From the sequence record NC_100372.1: DNA of 64,000 bases; one strand, 5' to 3'. Under the pieces are notes generated by a model. The model saw only the letters and a program-made list of their open reading frames with translations, did not search any database and was not told where the DNA came from. Of the stretch, positions 3,079 to 44,532 are shown piece by piece; position 1 is the stretch's first letter; each line of letters opens with the position of its first letter. The stretch comes from a phage. The translations under genes were made by a program, and so were the position numbers.

Positions 3079-3840
3079 ATGCGACGACTGATCATTATCT
3101 CCGGTGCTGGTTTGAGCGCTGAATCTGGTATCCCAACTTTCCGATCTGGTGGCACTGCAATGTGGGAGAATTTCAGCATCGATGAGGTGTGTAACATCCA
3201 CACCTTTGCCAAGAACTATTATAAGGTTCATGACTTTTACAATGCACGGCGTGTAGCTCTGGGCAGTGTTGATCCTAACCTTGCACATCTCCGGATCGCT
3301 GAATGGTATTCCCGCTGGTCTGGTCGCGTGATCAACCTGACAACCAATGTAGATGATTTGCTGGAGCGTGCTGGTGTAAAACATGAAGATATTTTACATG
3401 TCCACGGATATTTGCCAGAAATAGTCTACGAGGATGATGAAGGGAGTAACGTCATTAAAGACATTGGATACTCTGAGGTAGATGCAAGCAAGTATACTTG
3501 GGTTAAGCCTAATGTCGTGTTCTTCGGAGAAGTAGCTCCAAAGTATACAGACATGTATGACCTGTTGACTTCTCTGACGAGCAATGATATGGTTATCCTT
3601 GTAGGGTGCTCCAACACAGTTATCAATTTTAACTGGGAGCTATTCCCTGCCTGTAATAAGGGGACCAAACTGCTGATCGTTAACAAATACGACTCACAGC
3701 ATTTAGGGGAGAATGGCATTTCACGTAGTGACATTTACCAGTATGAGGATCGCGGCATCCCAGTTTGGTTTAACGGGGCTGTTGACGCTTTCTCTGATAA
3801 AACATTCATTGACATCGTAGAAAACTTTATGGAACTGTAA
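3079..3840 (+). CDS. Sir2-family NAD-dependent deacylase / ADP-ribosyltransferase-like protein
   Basis: Canonical sirtuin N-terminal motif GAGLSAESGIPTFR; 253 aa. Confidence 0.85.
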   Translation: MRRLIIISGAGLSAESGIPTFRSGGTAMWENFSIDEVCNIHTFAKNYYKVHDFYNARRVALGSVDPNLAHLRIAEWYSRWSGRVINLTTNVDDLLERAGVKHEDILHVHGYLPEIVYEDDEGSNVIKDIGYSEVDASKYTWVKPNVVFFGEVAPKYTDMYDLLTSLTSNDMVILVGCSNTVINFNWELFPACNKGTKLLIVNKYDSQHLGENGISRSDIYQYEDRGIPVWFNGAVDAFSDKTFIDIVENFMEL

Positions 3841-38890: not shown

Positions 38891-40355
38891 CACACAAGTC
38901 TGCTTTGCAGGTTTAGCTGCTCAGCTAAGGTTCTGGAGTCACCTATAACATCTTCCAACTAAATTTCCTACCAACACAGTTACTTACCCACCACACATGA
39001 CTGTTTGCTTGTTTAGTGAGCAGTCATCCCTTGACATTCTTGCCTATCTTGATAAAATTAAGTTCTTCTCTTTTCTTTTACCGAGTAATTCGGGTTTTCT
39101 GTTCTCTTCGGTTTGAAGGGGTATGGAGATACACCTGAGTGAACAGGGTGAACAACCGAACCTTTAGCTATGGCATTAGCATGGCGAAGCGGACGGGTGA
39201 CGAAAGAGGGGCCGGAGGACACCAGTCACTGCCATATAGTATATGGGTGATAACCTGAAGAGTCTGAATAAGTGTTTAAGTACCAGTCAGAGGAAAAGGT
39301 GAATGGTAGCCGAAGGGGGAGGGGGGTTTCTTATATCTTTAATTTGTATACTTTATATACACTTGTAAACCAATTCAATTAGGATCTGTTTACCACACAA
39401 AGTGGATGGAGACAAATATCACCTATTAAACTTGAATTATTTATAGAAAATACCACAACACCGCTTAAGTCTTTGATTTTACACACAAATCTTACAAATA
39501 TCCTACCTCCATATTTAACATACTTGTAACATATTCCATATCCTACCTGCCTGATCAATTTACTCCCACCACATTCCCACATTTTCCCTGTCTGTACTAC
39601 CCCACCCCCGCCGGGAGTCCCGTCATATCTGGCTTTCCAGCAAATATCACACCCACAAATATCATCACCTGAAGAGGGTTTCATCCCATAATACCTGCCT
39701 TACCTGAAGAGCGCTTCATACACCACCTAAATTTTTTAATTGACCCCTCCCCGCCGCCGGAGAGGTTGGCTTTTCCCACACAGGCCTGAAGAGTCAGCCA
39801 GAAATATCTGAACAGGTCCAGTTATGCCCCGATTTTGTGCTTGTCCTACAGGAGTGCTGCCCTGTCAGGAGCCGGTAGCGACTGGAGTGCTGCCAGGCGG
39901 ACGGAATGGGAATACTTCTCATTTTTATAATAATTCTCAAATATCGAGGCAGTGAGGCAAATTAATAGGCCAGGCCGTTCACACAGTGGCACAACATTTG
40001 CAATCTATCTTGTGGGAGTGAATGAGAATACCTATCATTGTGAGAATGGTTATCATTACGGGCAATTTAACATAATACCTATTATGCGCACCACTGGCGA
40101 TACATACAGGGATTGATAACATGGGTTACTGTTTACGCACATAACAATTATATTTATTACTATTTGTGTGGGATATAGTTAGCAACCAATAGATTAGATA
40201 TTGACCTGCAGACTTCTGACCGTCCAGACGTCTAAACGCCCACACAACAAGGATTATACATACATTCCTGAATGTAAACAGGGCCGCAAAAAATGCTACC
40301 ATACCAGTTTGTAAATTTTTCATGCAGCACTTGACAAAGAGGAGAAAAACTTGTC

Positions 40356-40417
40356 TGACACAATGTGACAAAATTGCCACTTTTGACACTTTTACCTTTG
40401 ACACAATATGACACAAT
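40356..40417. repeat. Cluster of five TGACA(C/A)(A/T)(A/T)T repeats
   Basis: tgacacaat 40356, tgacaaaat 40366, tgacacttt 40384, tgacacaat 40399 and 40409; inside the ORF-free region. Confidence 0.6.
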
Positions 40418-40443
40418 AACGGCTGTTACTATTCCATATCTCA

Positions 40444-40503
40444 CTGTTTACGTATAGACTGTTTACGCCTGAATAGTTTACGCCCAAACTGTTTACACAG
40501 AGA
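40444..40503. repeat. Four tandem 15-bp repeats with core TGTTTACRC
   Basis: ctgtttacg 40444, ctgtttacg 40459, tagtttacg 40474, ctgtttaca 40489 (exact 15-bp period); extra copies at 40129, 40900 and 40943. Confidence 0.8.
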
Positions 40504-40510
40504 TGATAAG

Positions 40511-40750
40511 CCATGACATTCGTTTGCATGAAAACAATTAACAAGTTAATAATATATGACATAATATAAAAGCAGGGCAACTATTAGAAGATCTATAGTT
40601 GCCTTGCTTGTTATGTCATGATTAACTAAATACAAGGCAACTATGATCTGAATAATAGATTGCAGAAAAACTATCACGGGGGTGATTGTTACTGCTTTTA
40701 TATTATGTCGCGACTCCGTCGCGCCATGCCATTCGTTTGCATAGTTGCCT
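40511..40750. repeat. Nested dyad-symmetric element
   Basis: Perfect 18-bp inverted repeat gacataatataaaagcag (40558-40575) / ctgcttttatattatgtc (40692-40709); inner palindrome ggcaactat-N10-atagttgcc (40576-40603); GGCAACTAT again at 40636 and inverted at 40741; flanking direct repeat cattcgtttgcat (40517 and 40731); palindrome cgcgac-tcc-gtcgcg (40709-40723). Confidence 0.8.
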
Positions 40751-41357
40751 TATTGTTACAGGTAAAACAATTACATTATTAATTATTTCTTATCTTTCTC
40801 TTAGTCATCTAATGATTCCAGTCAGTATAGTAATGTACAGTAAACATTAGACGACTAAAGATTTCTCTGTGTATAATAACTTATCGTGACAATTTCGAAC
40901 TGTTTACGAAAAATGTTGACACCTGAGCTGATTTATGTTATGCAGTTTACACGAATAATTATTTTATGCAGGTATTGACTATTCCGTTATTCTGTGGTTG
41001 GAATAAATACTTTGCAGACTATAGAATGGCGTGCGTACGTGAATTCTGAGATCTGGCGGCTATAGTTATACTCGATTTTTCGCGTAGAACACGCTTTCGA
41101 TGCTGTGTAAGTGTATGACTTATAAAGATTTTTAGTTGTTGACAAGATATTGGAGATGTGCATCAGGTTAAAATTTGTGCAATAGCGGCATTACGTGCAC
41201 TTTTGGGAGAGAAAACGGGTAAAAATGGCCCTGCTACCACACAATGAAAGATTATGCAATGGTTATTTTCCATGTATATTTGTACAGTATGTGGGATTGA
41301 TGGCTAGTCAATTATTCCACTTGCCAGGTAGGGCCGTTTATGGTAGGAGAAGAGCAG

Positions 41358-41386
41358 ACAAAAAGAAAGGGGCCTTTAAGCCCCTT
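41358..41386 (-). terminator. Intrinsic terminator for the minus-strand block
   Basis: Plus-strand aaggggc-ctttaa-gcccctt; on the minus strand it is followed by tctttttgtc; sits just past the stop of 41405-41824. Confidence 0.65.
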
Positions 41387-41404
41387 GATAATTCAGTTAA
41401 GAAA

Positions 41405-42842: not shown

Positions 42843-43054
42843 GGCGTTTTCCTCTCTTCTGGTTGTTGTGTGGGCACTTTTGCCCCTTCAAGATAAATGT
42901 TACCCCACCGCCTGGCAGGTGTCAACGGTTTTTATAGTTTTTTATATGACAGGCACCCCCGGTGATTGTCTCCCCCCGTCGCCAGGTGCCTGCCGTGAAA
43001 CAAGTATAACAAAAAACAGGACCATTACAAGCCCTGTTTTATGGTTTATAAAGA

Positions 43055-43246
43055 TTATATTTTTTCGCCTATATAGTCCGGTCGGTTTTTCTCTGTCATA
43101 CGCTTAAGCAATTCTTGCATGTTGCTTATGGCTTGCAGTGTATCCTCTTCAAGGGATGAATCGAGATAATCAGGATCATTCTTCACCTTGCAATGGTTAT
43201 GGTAACGTAGTACTGCCAGTACTTTTTTAACTTCTTCTGCTGTCAT
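43055..43246 (-). CDS. Hypothetical protein
   Basis: 63-aa ORF. Confidence 0.35.
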   Translation of the reverse strand: MTAEEVKKVLAVLRYHNHCKVKNDPDYLDSSLEEDTLQAISNMQELLKRMTEKNRPDYIGEKI

Positions 43247-43391
43247 TATTCCACCTAAAACAATGAGTTAATATATAACATTAGATCGCTGACTACCAGG
43301 ACAACACTGATCAGCACATACCTAACCATAAGGGGAAAGATCGCCAACATTGCCACCACGATCCCCATGGTAATAATTATCTTTCTCATGG

Positions 43392-43676
43392 TTAACGGTT
43401 CACGTAAGTTTTCCCGTTTACGGTTATCGGCAGATCCTCCAGGTCTGGATCTTCTTTAAGGTCGCGAGCAAGTTCACCGCACCGGACGCCCTCGAATCCG
43501 TAGTACTCTGTAGTGCCGTCCTTAAAAGTTTTTGCGGCAAGGCATAGGCGATAAGTAACCCCGATTTGATTGACGGCATGGATATCAGTTAGATCTACCT
43601 CTTTTGCCAACTCTTTAGCCATTACAGGCGCATTAAGTCCAACAACCAGGGCAACCACTGCGATCATCTTTTTCAT
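43392..43676 (-). CDS. Small secreted/periplasmic protein
   Basis: Signal-peptide-like N-terminus MKKMIAVVALVVGLNAPVMA followed by KE; two Cys in the mature part; 94 aa. Confidence 0.45.
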   Translation of the reverse strand: MKKMIAVVALVVGLNAPVMAKELAKEVDLTDIHAVNQIGVTYRLCLAAKTFKDGTTEYYGFEGVRCGELARDLKEDPDLEDLPITVNGKTYVNR

Positions 43677-43767
43677 TGTGTCTATCCTCTTTCTGCTACG
43701 TTTAAGGCGGCAGTAACCGCCTGTTTATGCTTTGTTGGTTAATTTTCGGGTATCTGTATAAATTAAA

Positions 43768-43983
43768 CTATGCTGTACGCTCAACTATAACAACGGCTTG
43801 AGGGATCTCACCTTCAACCACTATCAAGGCTTTTTTCTGCGTGATAGATATCTTTACCCGCTTCAGCGTGGCGGTAAAATCTTTCATTTCGTCACGTGGT
43901 GTTTTAGTGCAATACCAGATCTCAGGCTTGCCGATCTGCAAGTTGCGTAAAAATTCTGTTTTGCCTGTTTTGTTGGTGATCAT
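43768..43983 (-). CDS. Hypothetical protein
   Basis: 71-aa ORF. Confidence 0.35.
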   Translation of the reverse strand: MITNKTGKTEFLRNLQIGKPEIWYCTKTPRDEMKDFTATLKRVKISITQKKALIVVEGEIPQAVVIVERTA

Positions 43984-44039
43984 TTGCCCCTCTTTATTTT
44001 TTCATAATTTCAGGAGGGGCCTTTTCGGCCCCGCCAGGC

Positions 44040-44324
44040 TTATTTATTGATGGCGTGCAACGGGAAAGGTACGCCAGGTTGATAGATAACTTTTACAACC
44101 TCATCAGGGCAAAAGAAGTTGCAAAATTCACCGCAATAGGCTTCGTCTTCTTTTAGCTCTTCATCAACATACTCAAAAAAGTAGTCGATGCTTGGATAAT
44201 CCTGGCCGGGATTATAGTCGACCATTGTCAGGACTAGCTCAAGATCGTTGCGTAGGATATGCATACCAGCTTTTAAGTATTTGGCTTCCATTTCTACTAC
44301 ATCGCCAACGGTAACAATAGCCAT
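44040..44324 (-). CDS. Hypothetical protein
   Basis: 94-aa ORF. Confidence 0.4.
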   Translation of the reverse strand: MAIVTVGDVVEMEAKYLKAGMHILRNDLELVLTMVDYNPGQDYPSIDYFFEYVDEELKEDEAYCGEFCNFFCPDEVVKVIYQPGVPFPLHAINK

Positions 44325-44532
44325 GGTTTTAACTCCTATCTATCCGGTTAATGATTGGAGGCCTCACCGCCCCCCCCGACACCCTTTATTATCCATATTG
44401 TAGGACTTGATGCAAGTACTTCTTTAAAAAATTTTTAAGCGCCTTGGGGCCGCTGTAACGCCAAAATAATAAAGGCCATGCGGGTTGCATAGCCTTTAGA
44501 TGATTATATCGCTGTAGGCCCTGCTGGGGGCC

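What the first reader, a model, noticed from the sequence alone, without database searches (positions are those of the whole stretch)
43392..43676. Secreted or periplasmic small protein encoded in the early block
The protein has a clear signal-peptide-like N-terminus (MKKMIAVVALVVGLNAPVMA) and two Cys in the mature part. Periplasmic phage proteins are candidates for superinfection exclusion or inhibition of periplasmic host factors.
Basis: inference. Interest (0 to 1): 0.4.

Follow-up and report, generated by a model that had tools for sequence, protein, structure and literature searches.

The report
Exported small phage protein, membrane-peptide partner
This is a real, conserved gene of rV5-like E. 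coli phages. It encodes a small protein that is almost certainly exported to the periplasm and is made together with a tiny membrane peptide, but its function is unknown and can only be guessed (most likely it acts on the cell envelope, for example by blocking a second infection).

Summary
**Observation:** confirmed. Window 43392..43676 (minus strand) encodes a 94-aa protein, the counterpart of phage rV5 ORF171/gp166 (PHROG 9845, function unknown).

**Export signal:** the N-terminus is a textbook Sec/SPase-I signal peptide: MKK, an 11-residue hydrophobic core, then NAPVMA|K. It is too short and too polar to be a transmembrane anchor. Both mature cysteines are conserved.

**Selection and distribution:**
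- The gene is under purifying selection (omega about 0.08).
- It is full-length in 172 Vequintavirus/Phapecoctavirus genomes.
- One natural deletion variant lacks it, so it is probably accessory.

**New findings:**
1. It is translationally coupled (2-nt gap or ATGA overlap) to a conserved 44-aa inner-membrane peptide in three lineages.
2. The mature 74-aa domain is confidently modelled as beta3-alpha-beta2, with no significant match to any solved structure.
3. Its only structural relatives are uncharacterised, signal-bearing proteins of T7-like Bonnellviruses, with both cysteines in the same positions. Homology is plausible but unproven.

**Function:** no family, paper or neighbouring gene indicates what it does. 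T4 Spackle/Imm is the closest analogue in design (early, cleaved signal, about 75-aa mature protein with a disulfide, plus a membrane protein). It is not a homologue, and rV5 has no annotated tail lysozyme for it to target. Export is well supported; superinfection exclusion remains a guess. Interest is moderate to low.

The parts
43392..43676 (-). Gene for the 94-aa exported protein ('SP94'), including the TAA stop; ortholog of rV5 ORF171/gp166
   Evidence: ORF and translation. rV5 synteny. PHROG 9845, E 2.9e-61. omega 0.08. Full-length in 172 phage records.
43617..43676 (-). Codons 1-20: predicted Sec signal peptide MKKMIAVVALVVGLNAPVMA, cleaved after Ala20
   Evidence: n/h/c anatomy and the -3/-1 rule. 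dG19 of +7.0 is not TM-grade. Features kept in the divergent P0043. No TMD called in the rV5 ortholog.
43395..43616 (-). Mature 74-aa domain (8.3 kDa, pI 4.8). Predicted beta-beta-beta-alpha-beta-beta fold. Cys45 (43542-43544) is in strand 2 and Cys66 (43479-43481) is at the helix N-terminus.
   Evidence: AF2 model with pLDDT 83-91 over the mature part. Physicochemistry. Conservation map: residues 66-79 are nearly invariant.
43685..43691 (-). Ribosome-binding site AAGAGGA; its GAGG core ends 9 nt before the ATG
   Evidence: Read from the sequence. Not sequestered in the predicted RNA fold.
43255..43389 (-). Coupled gene for a 44-aa hydrophobic peptide ('TM44'; rV5 ORF170). Its ATG lies 2 nt after the SP94 stop and has no Shine-Dalgarno of its own.
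   Evidence: ORF. PHROG 16005, E 2.5e-26. '1 TMD' in rV5 Table S3. dG19 of -1.9 for residues 4-22 only. omega 0.15-0.20. Same junction in L003 and a 4-nt overlap in ESCO5.
43705..43722 (.). GC-rich hairpin (6-7-bp stem; 6 in the scan, 7 in the RNA fold) between the upstream ORF and SP94. On the minus strand it has no U-tract; on the plus strand it looks like a terminator.
   Evidence: The fold of the whole leader is not better than shuffles (z -0.2). Its role is unknown.
43784..43811 (-). Candidate internal sigma70-like promoter (GTGAGA-16-TATAGT with TG) inside the 3' end of the upstream ORF
   Evidence: Consensus scan, 9 of 12 matches. Promoter-like sites are not enriched over shuffles in this region, so this is weak.
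44388..44415 (-). Candidate promoter of the five-gene unit: TTGCAT-16-GATAAT, preceded by an A/T-rich UP-like tract
   Evidence: Read by eye. It falls below the scan's threshold because the -35 matches only 3 of 6. The Gotham record carries a PhagePromoter prediction upstream of its counterpart of this gene. It is retained in the deletion variant L009.
44470..44498 (-). Terminator-like hairpin with a T-run that ends the preceding unit
44040..44324 (-). First gene of the putative unit (94 aa, PHROG 12610, unknown function)
43768..43983 (-). Second gene of the unit (71 aa, PHROG 5988, unknown function)
43055..43246 (-). Last gene of the unit (63 aa, PHROG 9599, unknown function)
43013..43040 (-). 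Terminator-like hairpin (11 pairs plus a T-rich tail) that closes the unit

Best explanation
SP94 is an accessory protein, probably made early, that is exported by the Sec pathway.

How it is made (inferred from sequence): signal peptidase I cleaves it after Ala20, releasing a 74-residue acidic domain into the periplasm. The domain has a beta3-alpha-beta2 fold that is probably locked by a DsbA-made Cys45-Cys66 disulfide. Ribosomes that terminate on SP94 re-initiate 2 nt downstream on TM44. TM44 is a 44-aa peptide with one inner-membrane helix (residues 4-22) and a conserved, strand-prone tail (VLISVVLVVSDL).

How it most likely works (inference, not shown): the two products are made in fixed proportion and probably act together at the periplasmic face of the inner membrane. 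SP94 is too small and lacks any catalytic motif, so it most likely works by binding. Its nearly invariant helix and acidic segment (CGELARDLKEDPDL) is the likely contact surface.

The function I think most likely is envelope-level protection of the infected cell: blocking entry or genome injection by a second phage, analogous in design to T4 Spackle plus Imm.

My step-by-step confidence:
- export and cleavage: about 0.85;
- functional pairing with TM44: about 0.6;
- superinfection-exclusion-type role: about 0.3.
For: - Signal-peptide anatomy and the single permissible cleavage site.
- An insertion free energy in the signal-peptide range, not the TM range.
- No TMD called in the rV5 ortholog, while ORF170 is called '1 TMD'.
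- The leader sequence diverges but its features are kept in P0043.
- Both Cys are conserved in 40 of 41 cluster representatives and occupy the same columns in the Bonnellvirus family.
- The mature domain is modelled confidently.
- Purifying selection acts on both genes.
- The SP94-TM44 junction is conserved as a 2-nt gap (window, rV5, L003) or a 4-nt overlap (ESCO5).
- The location is a leftward small-ORF unit with sigma70-type promoters that also holds rIIB.
- A 137-kb genome with an ~880-bp deletion of the gene's 5' part shows that it is dispensable, as accessory exclusion or defence genes are.
- T4 Spackle is an early protein with a cleaved signal, 75 aa mature, with one disulfide, and works alongside the protein Imm (PMC7677548).
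Against: - No trained predictor (SignalP, DeepTMHMM) was available, and nothing here is experimental.
- There is no sequence or fold relationship to any protein with a known exclusion function.
- rV5 has no annotated virion-borne lysozyme, so the specific Spackle mechanism has no evident target.
- The Bonnellvirus structural relatives lack a coupled membrane peptide, so the partnership may not be essential to the fold's function.
- TM44 topology is uncertain. The residue after the first hydrophobic segment is R, K or E in different lineages.
- One isolate carries C45Y.
Confidence: 0.4

Rival explanations
1. Host-directed periplasmic effector. SP94 binds and neutralises a host periplasmic or envelope factor common to E. 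coli hosts, rather than an incoming phage. Candidates include a protease, a cell-wall enzyme, an envelope-stress sensor, or the periplasmic part of a membrane-embedded defence system.
For: - A structurally similar, signal-bearing family with the same Cys pair occurs in the early region of unrelated T7-like Bonnellviruses. That fits a shared host target better than phage-specific exclusion.
- The conserved acidic surface suggests a fixed partner.
- The gene is dispensable.
Against: - Homology between the two families is not established: hhalign E is 0.042 and most shuffle tests are not significant.
- There is no hit in PADLOC or in any annotated family.
- No candidate target was identified.
Confidence: 0.25
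2. Lysis-timing control. SP94 is a periplasmic regulator of lysis. It could act like the T4 RI antiholin, or as an inhibitor that mops up the basic endolysin gp89 (pI 9.3) if it leaks early. TM44 would then be a holin- or antiholin-like membrane partner.
For: - T4 RI is also a protein of about 97 aa that acts in the periplasm (my own knowledge).
- rV5 carries rIIA/rIIB homologs in the same leftward unit, and its holin assignment is only tentative.
- SP94 is acidic and the lysozyme is basic.
Against: - The leader is a normal cleavable signal peptide, not a weakly hydrophobic Gly/Ala-rich SAR domain.
- The fold is beta-rich, and no RI structure appears among the fold or sequence hits.
- The putative rV5 holin gp129 has two TMDs and no large periplasmic domain to bind.
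- The genes lie far from the lysis genes.
Confidence: 0.12
3. Uncleaved signal anchor. The N-terminus acts as a type-II membrane anchor, so the beta-rich domain is tethered to the outer face of the inner membrane rather than being soluble.
For: - The Bonnellvirus relatives have longer, TM-grade N-terminal segments, with dG19 from -2.0 to +1.1 in most members, and a 23-residue helix in the model.
- Cleavage has not been shown.
Against: - In the window family the hydrophobic core is only 11-13 residues (16 in P0043) and is followed by N-A-P. Its dG19 is +5.5 to +7.5 (+4.8 in P0043).
- It has a canonical V-x-A site.
- TMHMM and Phobius did not call a TMD in rV5 ORF171.
- In either case the domain faces the periplasm.
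Confidence: 0.1
4. Spurious ORF, or a signal-like N-terminus that arose by chance.
For: The gene is short and is annotated only as hypothetical everywhere.
Against: - omega is 0.08.
- It is full-length in 172 genomes.
- It has a strong RBS.
- It gives a confident structure model.
- The signal-peptide features persist through 11 changes in the 20 leader positions.
Confidence: 0.01

Closest known systems
T4 Spackle (gp61.3) acting with Imm (superinfection exclusion)
   Same: - Both are early phage gene products.
- Both have a cleaved periplasmic signal.
- The sizes nearly match: 75-aa mature Spackle against 74 aa here (PMC7677548).
- Spackle has one disulfide; SP94 has a conserved Cys pair.
- Each acts alongside a second phage protein; in T4 that is Imm, which I recall is a small membrane protein.
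   Different: - Spackle is an alpha-helical bundle, whereas SP94 is predicted beta3-alpha-beta2.
- There is no sequence or fold match.
- As far as I recall, sp and imm are not adjacent or translationally coupled in T4, whereas SP94 and TM44 are 2 nt apart.
- Spackle's target is the gp5 tail lysozyme, and rV5 has no annotated tail lysozyme.
Bonnellvirus (T7-like) 104-aa protein family, e.g. Escherichia phage Lidtsur QBZ71517.1 (uncharacterised)
   Same: - The predicted topology after an N-terminal hydrophobic leader is the same.
- Foldseek matches are reciprocal: E 2.2e-3 with TM 0.59 one way, and rank 5 with E 3.8e-3 the other way.
- Both Cys, the -1 Ala and the C-terminal NG[KH] motif align in hhalign and in MAFFT.
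- Both genes sit in an early-region block of small ORFs.
   Different: - Identity is only 20-25%, and the sequence statistics are marginal.
- The leader is longer and TM-grade in most members.
- There is no adjacent membrane peptide.
- Its function is equally unknown. It is the 13th CDS of the Lidtsur record, so by numbering it is presumably not the anti-defence protein 'Lidtsur 6'.
T4 RI antiholin
   Same: A small phage protein of about 97 aa that acts in the periplasm (my own knowledge).
   Different: - RI uses a signal-anchor-release domain and is helical.
- It needs a holin with a periplasmic domain.
- None of these features is seen here.
Bacterial periplasmic lysozyme inhibitors (Ivy, MliC/PliC, PliG, PliI)
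   Same: Small, mainly beta-sheet periplasmic binders, some with disulfides (PMC7677548).
   Different: - There is no Pfam hit.
- None appears among the listed top 50 PDB fold hits, and no fold hit reaches E 0.001.
- The topology includes a helix packed on a 3+2-stranded sheet.

Membership tests
Sec-type signal peptide cleaved by signal peptidase I | Positively charged n-region with no acidic residues | tested here: met
   MKK, +2/-0, invariant in all members
Sec-type signal peptide cleaved by signal peptidase I | Hydrophobic h-region of about 7-15 residues, shorter than a TM helix | tested here: met
   11-13 residues (16 in the divergent P0043). The best 19-mer dG is +5.5 to +7.5 kcal/mol (+4.8 in P0043), against -3.2 for Lep TM1 and +2.4 to +8.1 for OmpA, PhoA, MalE and DsbA leaders. 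The scale values and reference sequences were recalled from the literature.
Sec-type signal peptide cleaved by signal peptidase I | c-region with small neutral residues at -1 and -3, a helix breaker near -4 to -6, and no Pro at +1 | tested here: met
   NAPVMA|K: V(-3), A(-1), P(-4), K(+1). The first 11 mature residues have net charge -2. MalE likewise has K at +1.
Sec-type signal peptide cleaved by signal peptidase I | Not a lipoprotein signal (no lipobox L-[AS]-[GA]-C) and not a Tat signal (no RR motif) | tested here: met
   The window-family leader has no Cys. P0043 has ...TSTC..., which is not a lipobox. There is no RR.
Sec-type signal peptide cleaved by signal peptidase I | Demonstrated export and cleavage | not testable with these tools
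   This needs fractionation, PhoA fusion or N-terminal mass spectrometry. No trained predictor was available.
PHROG 9845 (phage protein family, unknown function) | Full-length profile match | tested here: met
   E 2.9e-61, residues 1-94 against profile positions 1-94 of 94
T4 Spackle family | Sequence homology to gp61.3 | tested here: not met
   No Pfam or NCBIfam hit. A profile search of all PDB sequences at E up to 10 returns no Spackle chain.
T4 Spackle family | Compact alpha-helical bundle fold | tested here: not met
   The model has five strands and one helix. No fold hit reaches E 0.001 and no Spackle entry appears among the 50 listed hits.
T4 Spackle family | Binds and inhibits a tail-spike lysozyme | not testable with these tools
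   The only annotated rV5 muralytic enzyme is gp89, which has no virion MS evidence.
T4 RI-type antiholin | Signal-anchor-release N-terminus and a helical periplasmic domain that binds a holin's periplasmic domain | tested here: not met
   The leader is an ordinary cleavable signal and the fold is beta-rich. The putative rV5 holin has two TMDs and no large periplasmic domain.
Spanins (i-, o- or u-spanin) | Lipobox (o/u-spanin), or an N-terminal TMD with a long coiled-coil periplasmic domain (i-spanin) | tested here: not met
   No lipobox, a cleavable signal, and a 74-aa beta-rich domain. The gene is far from the lysin gene.
Proposed superfamily with the Bonnellvirus Lidtsur-type proteins | Same fold topology and reciprocal structural match | tested here: met
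   Both are beta3-alpha-beta2. Foldseek prob 1.0 in both directions, with TM 0.59/0.54 one way and 0.39/0.42 the other.
Proposed superfamily with the Bonnellvirus Lidtsur-type proteins | Statistically significant sequence similarity | tested here: inconclusive
   hhalign E 0.042 over 82 columns. HMM against sequences, per-sequence E 0.015-0.14. Shuffle z ranges from -0.4 to 4.3, with only pairs involving P0043 significant. The merged-profile search found no bridging family.
Known anti-phage defence proteins (PADLOC) | Profile match to any defence-system component | tested here: not met
   No families at E up to 1 for SP94 or TM44

The most novel reading that the evidence does not exclude
SP94 and the Bonnellvirus proteins may be true homologs. 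They would then define an unrecognised superfamily of disulfide-locked beta3-alpha-beta2 proteins that unrelated virulent coliphages (large rV5-like myoviruses and T7-like podoviruses) export into the periplasm early in infection. Their role would be to neutralise one common host envelope component, such as the periplasmic sensor part of a membrane-embedded defence system or an envelope-stress pathway. In the myoviruses, a co-translated 44-aa membrane peptide would tether or deliver the protein. That would make it a periplasmic counter-defence or takeover module with a new fold.
Probability: 0.12. Interest if true: 0.65.

Novelty: new variant of a known kind. Interest (0 to 1): 0.33.

Why it matters
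Very few phage proteins that act in the host periplasm are understood; T4 Spackle, RI and T5 Llp are the classic cases.

SP94 is present in every matching Vequintavirus and Phapecoctavirus record in the collection, and some of these phages have been studied as therapy or biocontrol candidates. It has never been annotated beyond 'hypothetical'. If it excludes other phages or alters the envelope, it would affect how these phages behave in cocktails and in co-infections.

The analysis here gives a concrete and cheap experimental handle:
- a two-gene module of 420 bp;
- a predicted mature N-terminus (KELAKE...);
- a predicted disulfide (Cys45-Cys66);
- a conserved acidic surface to mutate;
- a natural deletion variant;
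- a possible sister family in T7-like phages.

If it turns out to have no phenotype, it is simply one more small accessory gene.

Tried and rejected
- **Family libraries.** Pfam, NCBIfam and PADLOC scans of SP94 gave nothing. For TM44 the only result was a sub-threshold DUF7396 hit (E 0.014).
- **PDB by sequence.** The profile search gave only noise, such as Evasin and LRR proteins at E of 0.17 or worse.
- **Exhaustive HMM search of 1.84 billion representatives.** It found only one divergent phage member (P0043), a truncated variant (P0042), and a spurious LRR-repeat protein (P0044) that matches the CGELARDLKEDPDL segment six times.
- **PDB fold search.** The best TM-score was about 0.35. The many HIV RT/RNase H hits reflect only the generic three-strand-plus-helix motif and were rejected as meaningless for a 74-aa periplasmic domain.
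- **Shared two-gene architecture with Lidtsur.** Rejected, because the ORF downstream of the Lidtsur homolog is not hydrophobic.
- **Link to the known anti-defence protein 'Lidtsur 6'.** Rejected on gene numbering, because the structural relative is the 13th CDS.
- **Merged two-family profile search for bridging or cellular relatives.** It found only more Bonnellvirus-type members.
- **My automated cleavage-site picker.** It chose sites inside the h-region ('VVG|L') and was discarded in favour of manual application of the -3/-1 and +1 rules.
- **Leader hairpin as a regulatory structure.** The fold is no better than shuffles.
- **Literature searches by accession, locus tag, signal peptide and transcriptomics.** Nothing on this gene turned up.
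- **Spanin, lipoprotein and Tat readings.** Rejected on sequence features.
Full report
**1. What is there**

The window is a Vequintavirus (rV5-like myovirus) genome segment. The 2-kb stretch around the finding is 98% identical to Escherichia phage ECP26 and 91% to rV5.

The reported ORF is real. It lies at 43392..43676 on the minus strand, with 94 codons plus TAA, and a GAGG Shine-Dalgarno 9 nt before the ATG. It corresponds to rV5 ORF171/gp166. It belongs to PHROG 9845, 'unknown function' (E 2.9e-61), and has no Pfam, NCBIfam or PADLOC match.

**2. Is the signal peptide real?**

The N-terminus has the full three-part anatomy:
- n-region MKK;
- an 11-residue hydrophobic core, MIAVVALVVGL;
- a c-region, NAPVMA, with V at -3, A at -1 and Pro at -4.

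Cleavage after Ala20 is the only SPase-I-compatible site, because cleavage after Ala16 would put Pro at +1. There is no lipobox and no twin-arginine motif. The first residues of the mature protein have net negative charge.

The scale values were recalled from the literature.

| Sequence | Best 19-residue dG (kcal/mol) |
|---|---|
| Window family | +5.5 to +7.5 |
| Divergent member P0043 | +4.8 |
| Leaders of OmpA, PhoA, MalE, DsbA | +2.4 to +8.1 |
| Leader peptidase TM1 (a true TM helix) | -3.2 |

(all)

Independently, the rV5 genome paper scanned the proteome with TMHMM and Phobius. It lists no TMD for ORF171 but '1 TMD' for the neighbouring ORF170 (PMC3606486, Table S3). The first 27 residues of rV5 ORF171 are identical to the window protein.

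A crude signal-peptide pattern hit only 4 of 290 ORFs of 40 aa or more in the window. The other three are unconvincing, and one is the Rossmann N-terminus of a SIR2 protein.

The strongest argument is evolutionary. In the divergent homolog P0043 (57% identity), 11 of the 20 leader positions differ, yet the charge, the hydrophobic core and the small -1/-3 residues are all kept.

No trained predictor was available, and nothing here is experimental. [quoted passage not shown]

**3. The gene is real, core to its lineage, but dispensable**

Against rV5 there are 13 synonymous and 4 nonsynonymous differences (omega 0.08).

tblastn finds the protein full-length in 172 phage records, at 78-100% identity in the 40 listed rows. 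The named ones are Vequintavirus or Phapecoctavirus. All annotated rows among those listed say 'hypothetical protein' or 'Phage protein'.

The 5.8-billion-protein index gave 42 clusters. For many of them the longest contig is about 130-150 kb, which is phage-genome size; others come only from short fragments.

An exhaustive HMM search of 1.84 billion representatives added only P0043, which sits in the same syntenic position in contigs of about 135-140 kb.

One 137-kb contig (L009) has an ~880-bp deletion equivalent to window 44372..43493. It removes two upstream genes and the first ~61 codons of SP94, including the signal peptide. It leaves the promoter, TM44 and the downstream genes intact. 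So the gene is probably accessory rather than essential, assuming the assembly is correct.

**4. The mature protein**

After cleavage the protein is 74 aa, 8.3 kDa, with pI 4.8.

AlphaFold2, using a 28-sequence alignment, gives pLDDT 83-91 across the mature part. The layout is strands 24-35, 41-51 and 56-62, a helix at 66-75, and a small hairpin at 84-91.

Cys45 lies in strand 2 and Cys66 at the helix N-terminus. Both are present in 40 of 41 cluster representatives; the exception is P0030 with C45Y. In the oxidising periplasm a conserved pair like this is expected to form a disulfide. That is an inference, because I could not obtain coordinates to measure the distance.

The conservation pattern:
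- The least variable segment is residues 66-79, CGELARDLKEDPDL (mean entropy 0.11).
- Variation concentrates at the start of strand 1, in the strand 2-3 turn (position 52: Q, N, K, E or S), and in loop 80-83.

The protein has no catalytic motif and is too small for an enzyme. I read it as a binder, with the acidic helix face as the likely contact surface (inference).

**5. No known fold, but a sister family in T7-like phages**

Foldseek against the PDB gave nothing with E below 0.07 or TM above about 0.36. The many HIV RNase H hits reflect only a generic three-strand-plus-helix motif. A profile search of PDB sequences gave noise.

Against predicted viral structures, the only non-self hit of note was a 104-aa protein of Escherichia phage Lidtsur (E 2.2e-3, TM 0.59, RMSD 2.8 Å over 73 columns). 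Lidtsur is a Bonnellvirus, a T7-like podovirus (PMC7552041).

The gene is the 13th CDS, in the early small-ORF block before the primase. By numbering it is presumably not the anti-defence protein 'Lidtsur 6'.

Evidence for a relationship:
- The protein has an N-terminal hydrophobic leader ending in A-x-A, two invariant mature cysteines, and an invariant C-terminus ...SINGHNINLT.
- Its AF2 model has the same beta3-alpha-beta2 topology.
- Used as a query, it recovers the Vequintavirus protein at rank 5 (E 3.8e-3, prob 1.0), after its own relatives from LIMEzero and PGT2.
- hhalign and MAFFT independently put the two families in the same register. They superpose the -1 Ala, both Cys, Gly63 and the NG[KH] motif.

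Evidence that it is not established:
- The sequence statistics are marginal: hhalign E 0.042, HMM per-sequence E 0.015-0.14, and most pairwise shuffle tests not significant. Only pairs involving P0043 reach significance, the best at z 4.3.
- A merged-profile search found only more Bonnellvirus-type members. Their leaders again differ in sequence but keep an A-x-A-type site.

I therefore call the relationship plausible but unproven.

The Bonnellvirus leaders are mostly TM-grade (dG -2 to +1), so those proteins may be anchored rather than released. In either case the domain faces the periplasm.

**6. The coupled partner**

Two nucleotides after the SP94 stop, a 44-aa ORF begins (43255..43389, minus strand; rV5 ORF170; PHROG 16005). 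It has no Shine-Dalgarno of its own.

The junction is conserved in three lineages:
- the same 2-nt gap in rV5 and in the divergent L003 lineage, where the gene was not called;
- a 4-nt ATGA overlap in the Phapecoctavirus ESCO5, where the ORF is unannotated in RefSeq.

The ORF is under purifying selection (omega 0.15-0.20). Only residues 4-22 are TM-grade (dG -1.9). The most conserved part is the following tail, (Y/H)VLIS(V/I)(V/I)L(V/A)VSDL.

I infer translational coupling and a functional pair. One attractive but untested idea is that the strand-prone tail docks on an edge strand of SP94.

The Bonnellvirus relatives have no such neighbour.

**7. Transcription context**

On the minus strand, a terminator-like hairpin at 44498-44470 is followed by an A/T-rich tract and a weak promoter-like site, TTGCAT-16-GATAAT, at 44415-44388. 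I read this by eye. It is below the scan's threshold, but the Gotham record predicts a promoter upstream of its counterpart of this gene.

Five small genes follow:
- 44324..44040;
- 43983..43768;
- SP94;
- TM44;
- 43246..43055.

A second terminator-like hairpin at 43040-43013 closes the unit.

The rV5 authors place this region in a leftward unit, 'genes 10-1-238-164', that includes rIIB and has sigma70-type promoters. So early expression is plausible, but it has not been measured. I found no transcriptome data for this gene.

**8. What it most likely does**

The chain of evidence runs as follows:
- Shown by the sequence: a conserved two-gene module.
- Strongly inferred: Sec export and cleavage.
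- Inferred: the disulfide, the pairing with TM44, and a binding (non-enzymatic) mode of action.
- Guess: the biological role.

The closest design analogue is T4 Spackle working with Imm. Spackle is an early protein with a cleaved signal, 75 aa when mature, with one disulfide. It inhibits the gp5 tail lysozyme to exclude superinfecting phage (PMC7677548).

SP94 is not a member of that family, because fold and sequence both fail the test. The specific mechanism also lacks a target. rV5's only annotated muralytic enzyme is gp89, which has no virion MS evidence.

My probabilities for the role:
- an exclusion or envelope-protection role: about 0.3;
- a host-directed periplasmic target: about 0.25, favoured if the Bonnellvirus link is real;
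- lysis-timing control: about 0.12.

**9. Verdict**

The functional suggestion is untested.

The added value of this analysis is the coupled membrane peptide, the apparently new fold, the candidate sister family in T7-like phages, and the natural deletion variant.

This is an ordinary kind of object (a small exported accessory phage protein) in an uncharacterised form. Interest is moderate to low unless experiments reveal a target.

Noticed in passing
window 38900-41400: An ORF-poor stretch between convergent transcription units, equivalent to the 2.6-kb 'non-coding' region of rV5. It contains an AT-rich core (GC 0.33 at 40500-40999). All five exact copies of ACTGTTTAC in the 64-kb window lie here (40128-40907), on one strand, against 0.7 expected. 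There is also a perfect 18-nt inverted repeat (40558-40575 / 40692-40709). No Rfam family or tRNA was found. It looks iteron- or origin-like.
   Followed up: partly
window 3079-3840 (+): A 253-aa ORF with a clear Pfam SIR2 domain (E 1.1e-26). Its GAGLSAESGIPT N-terminus mimicked a signal peptide in my crude scan.
   Followed up: partly
window 43984-44039: Relative to rV5, this phage lacks three small genes (rV5 ORF173-175, one of which is a 46-aa '1 TMD' membrane protein) between the ORF172 and ORF176 counterparts. The small-ORF block therefore varies by insertions and deletions.
   Followed up: no
L008 1788-1922 (ESCO5, NC_047776.2); L003 5285-5419: The conserved 44-aa membrane-peptide gene is missing from the RefSeq annotation of ESCO5. 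It was also not called in the metagenomic contigs L003-L006. It is probably under-annotated in other records too.
   Followed up: yes
L009 1458-1707 (Logan ERR3991045, 137-kb contig): A natural deletion of about 880 bp, equivalent to window 44372..43493. It joins the sequence just downstream of the unit's promoter to the last 34 codons of SP94, creating a 68-aa chimeric ORF (P0042). TM44 and the downstream genes are intact.
   Followed up: yes
phage collection hits: About 15 records labelled 'Campylobacter phage' (for example MG065674, MG065666, MG065635, MG065650) carry this gene at 82-98% protein identity and have rV5-like or phAPEC8-like genome sizes. Records labelled Pseudomonas phage PsgM04F and Acinetobacter phage ABPW7 do too. 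The host labels look doubtful for what are essentially coliphage genomes.
   Followed up: no
window 43255-43389 (-): TM44 gives a full-length but sub-threshold match to Pfam DUF7396 (E 0.014, 16 bits against a cutoff of 27). This may hint at a wider family of tiny membrane peptides.
   Followed up: no
L007 2875-3325 and 6033-6233 (phage Lidtsur): The Lidtsur early region contains several other very small hydrophobic ORFs (33, 58, 57 and 66 aa), none of them adjacent to the SP94-like gene.
   Followed up: no
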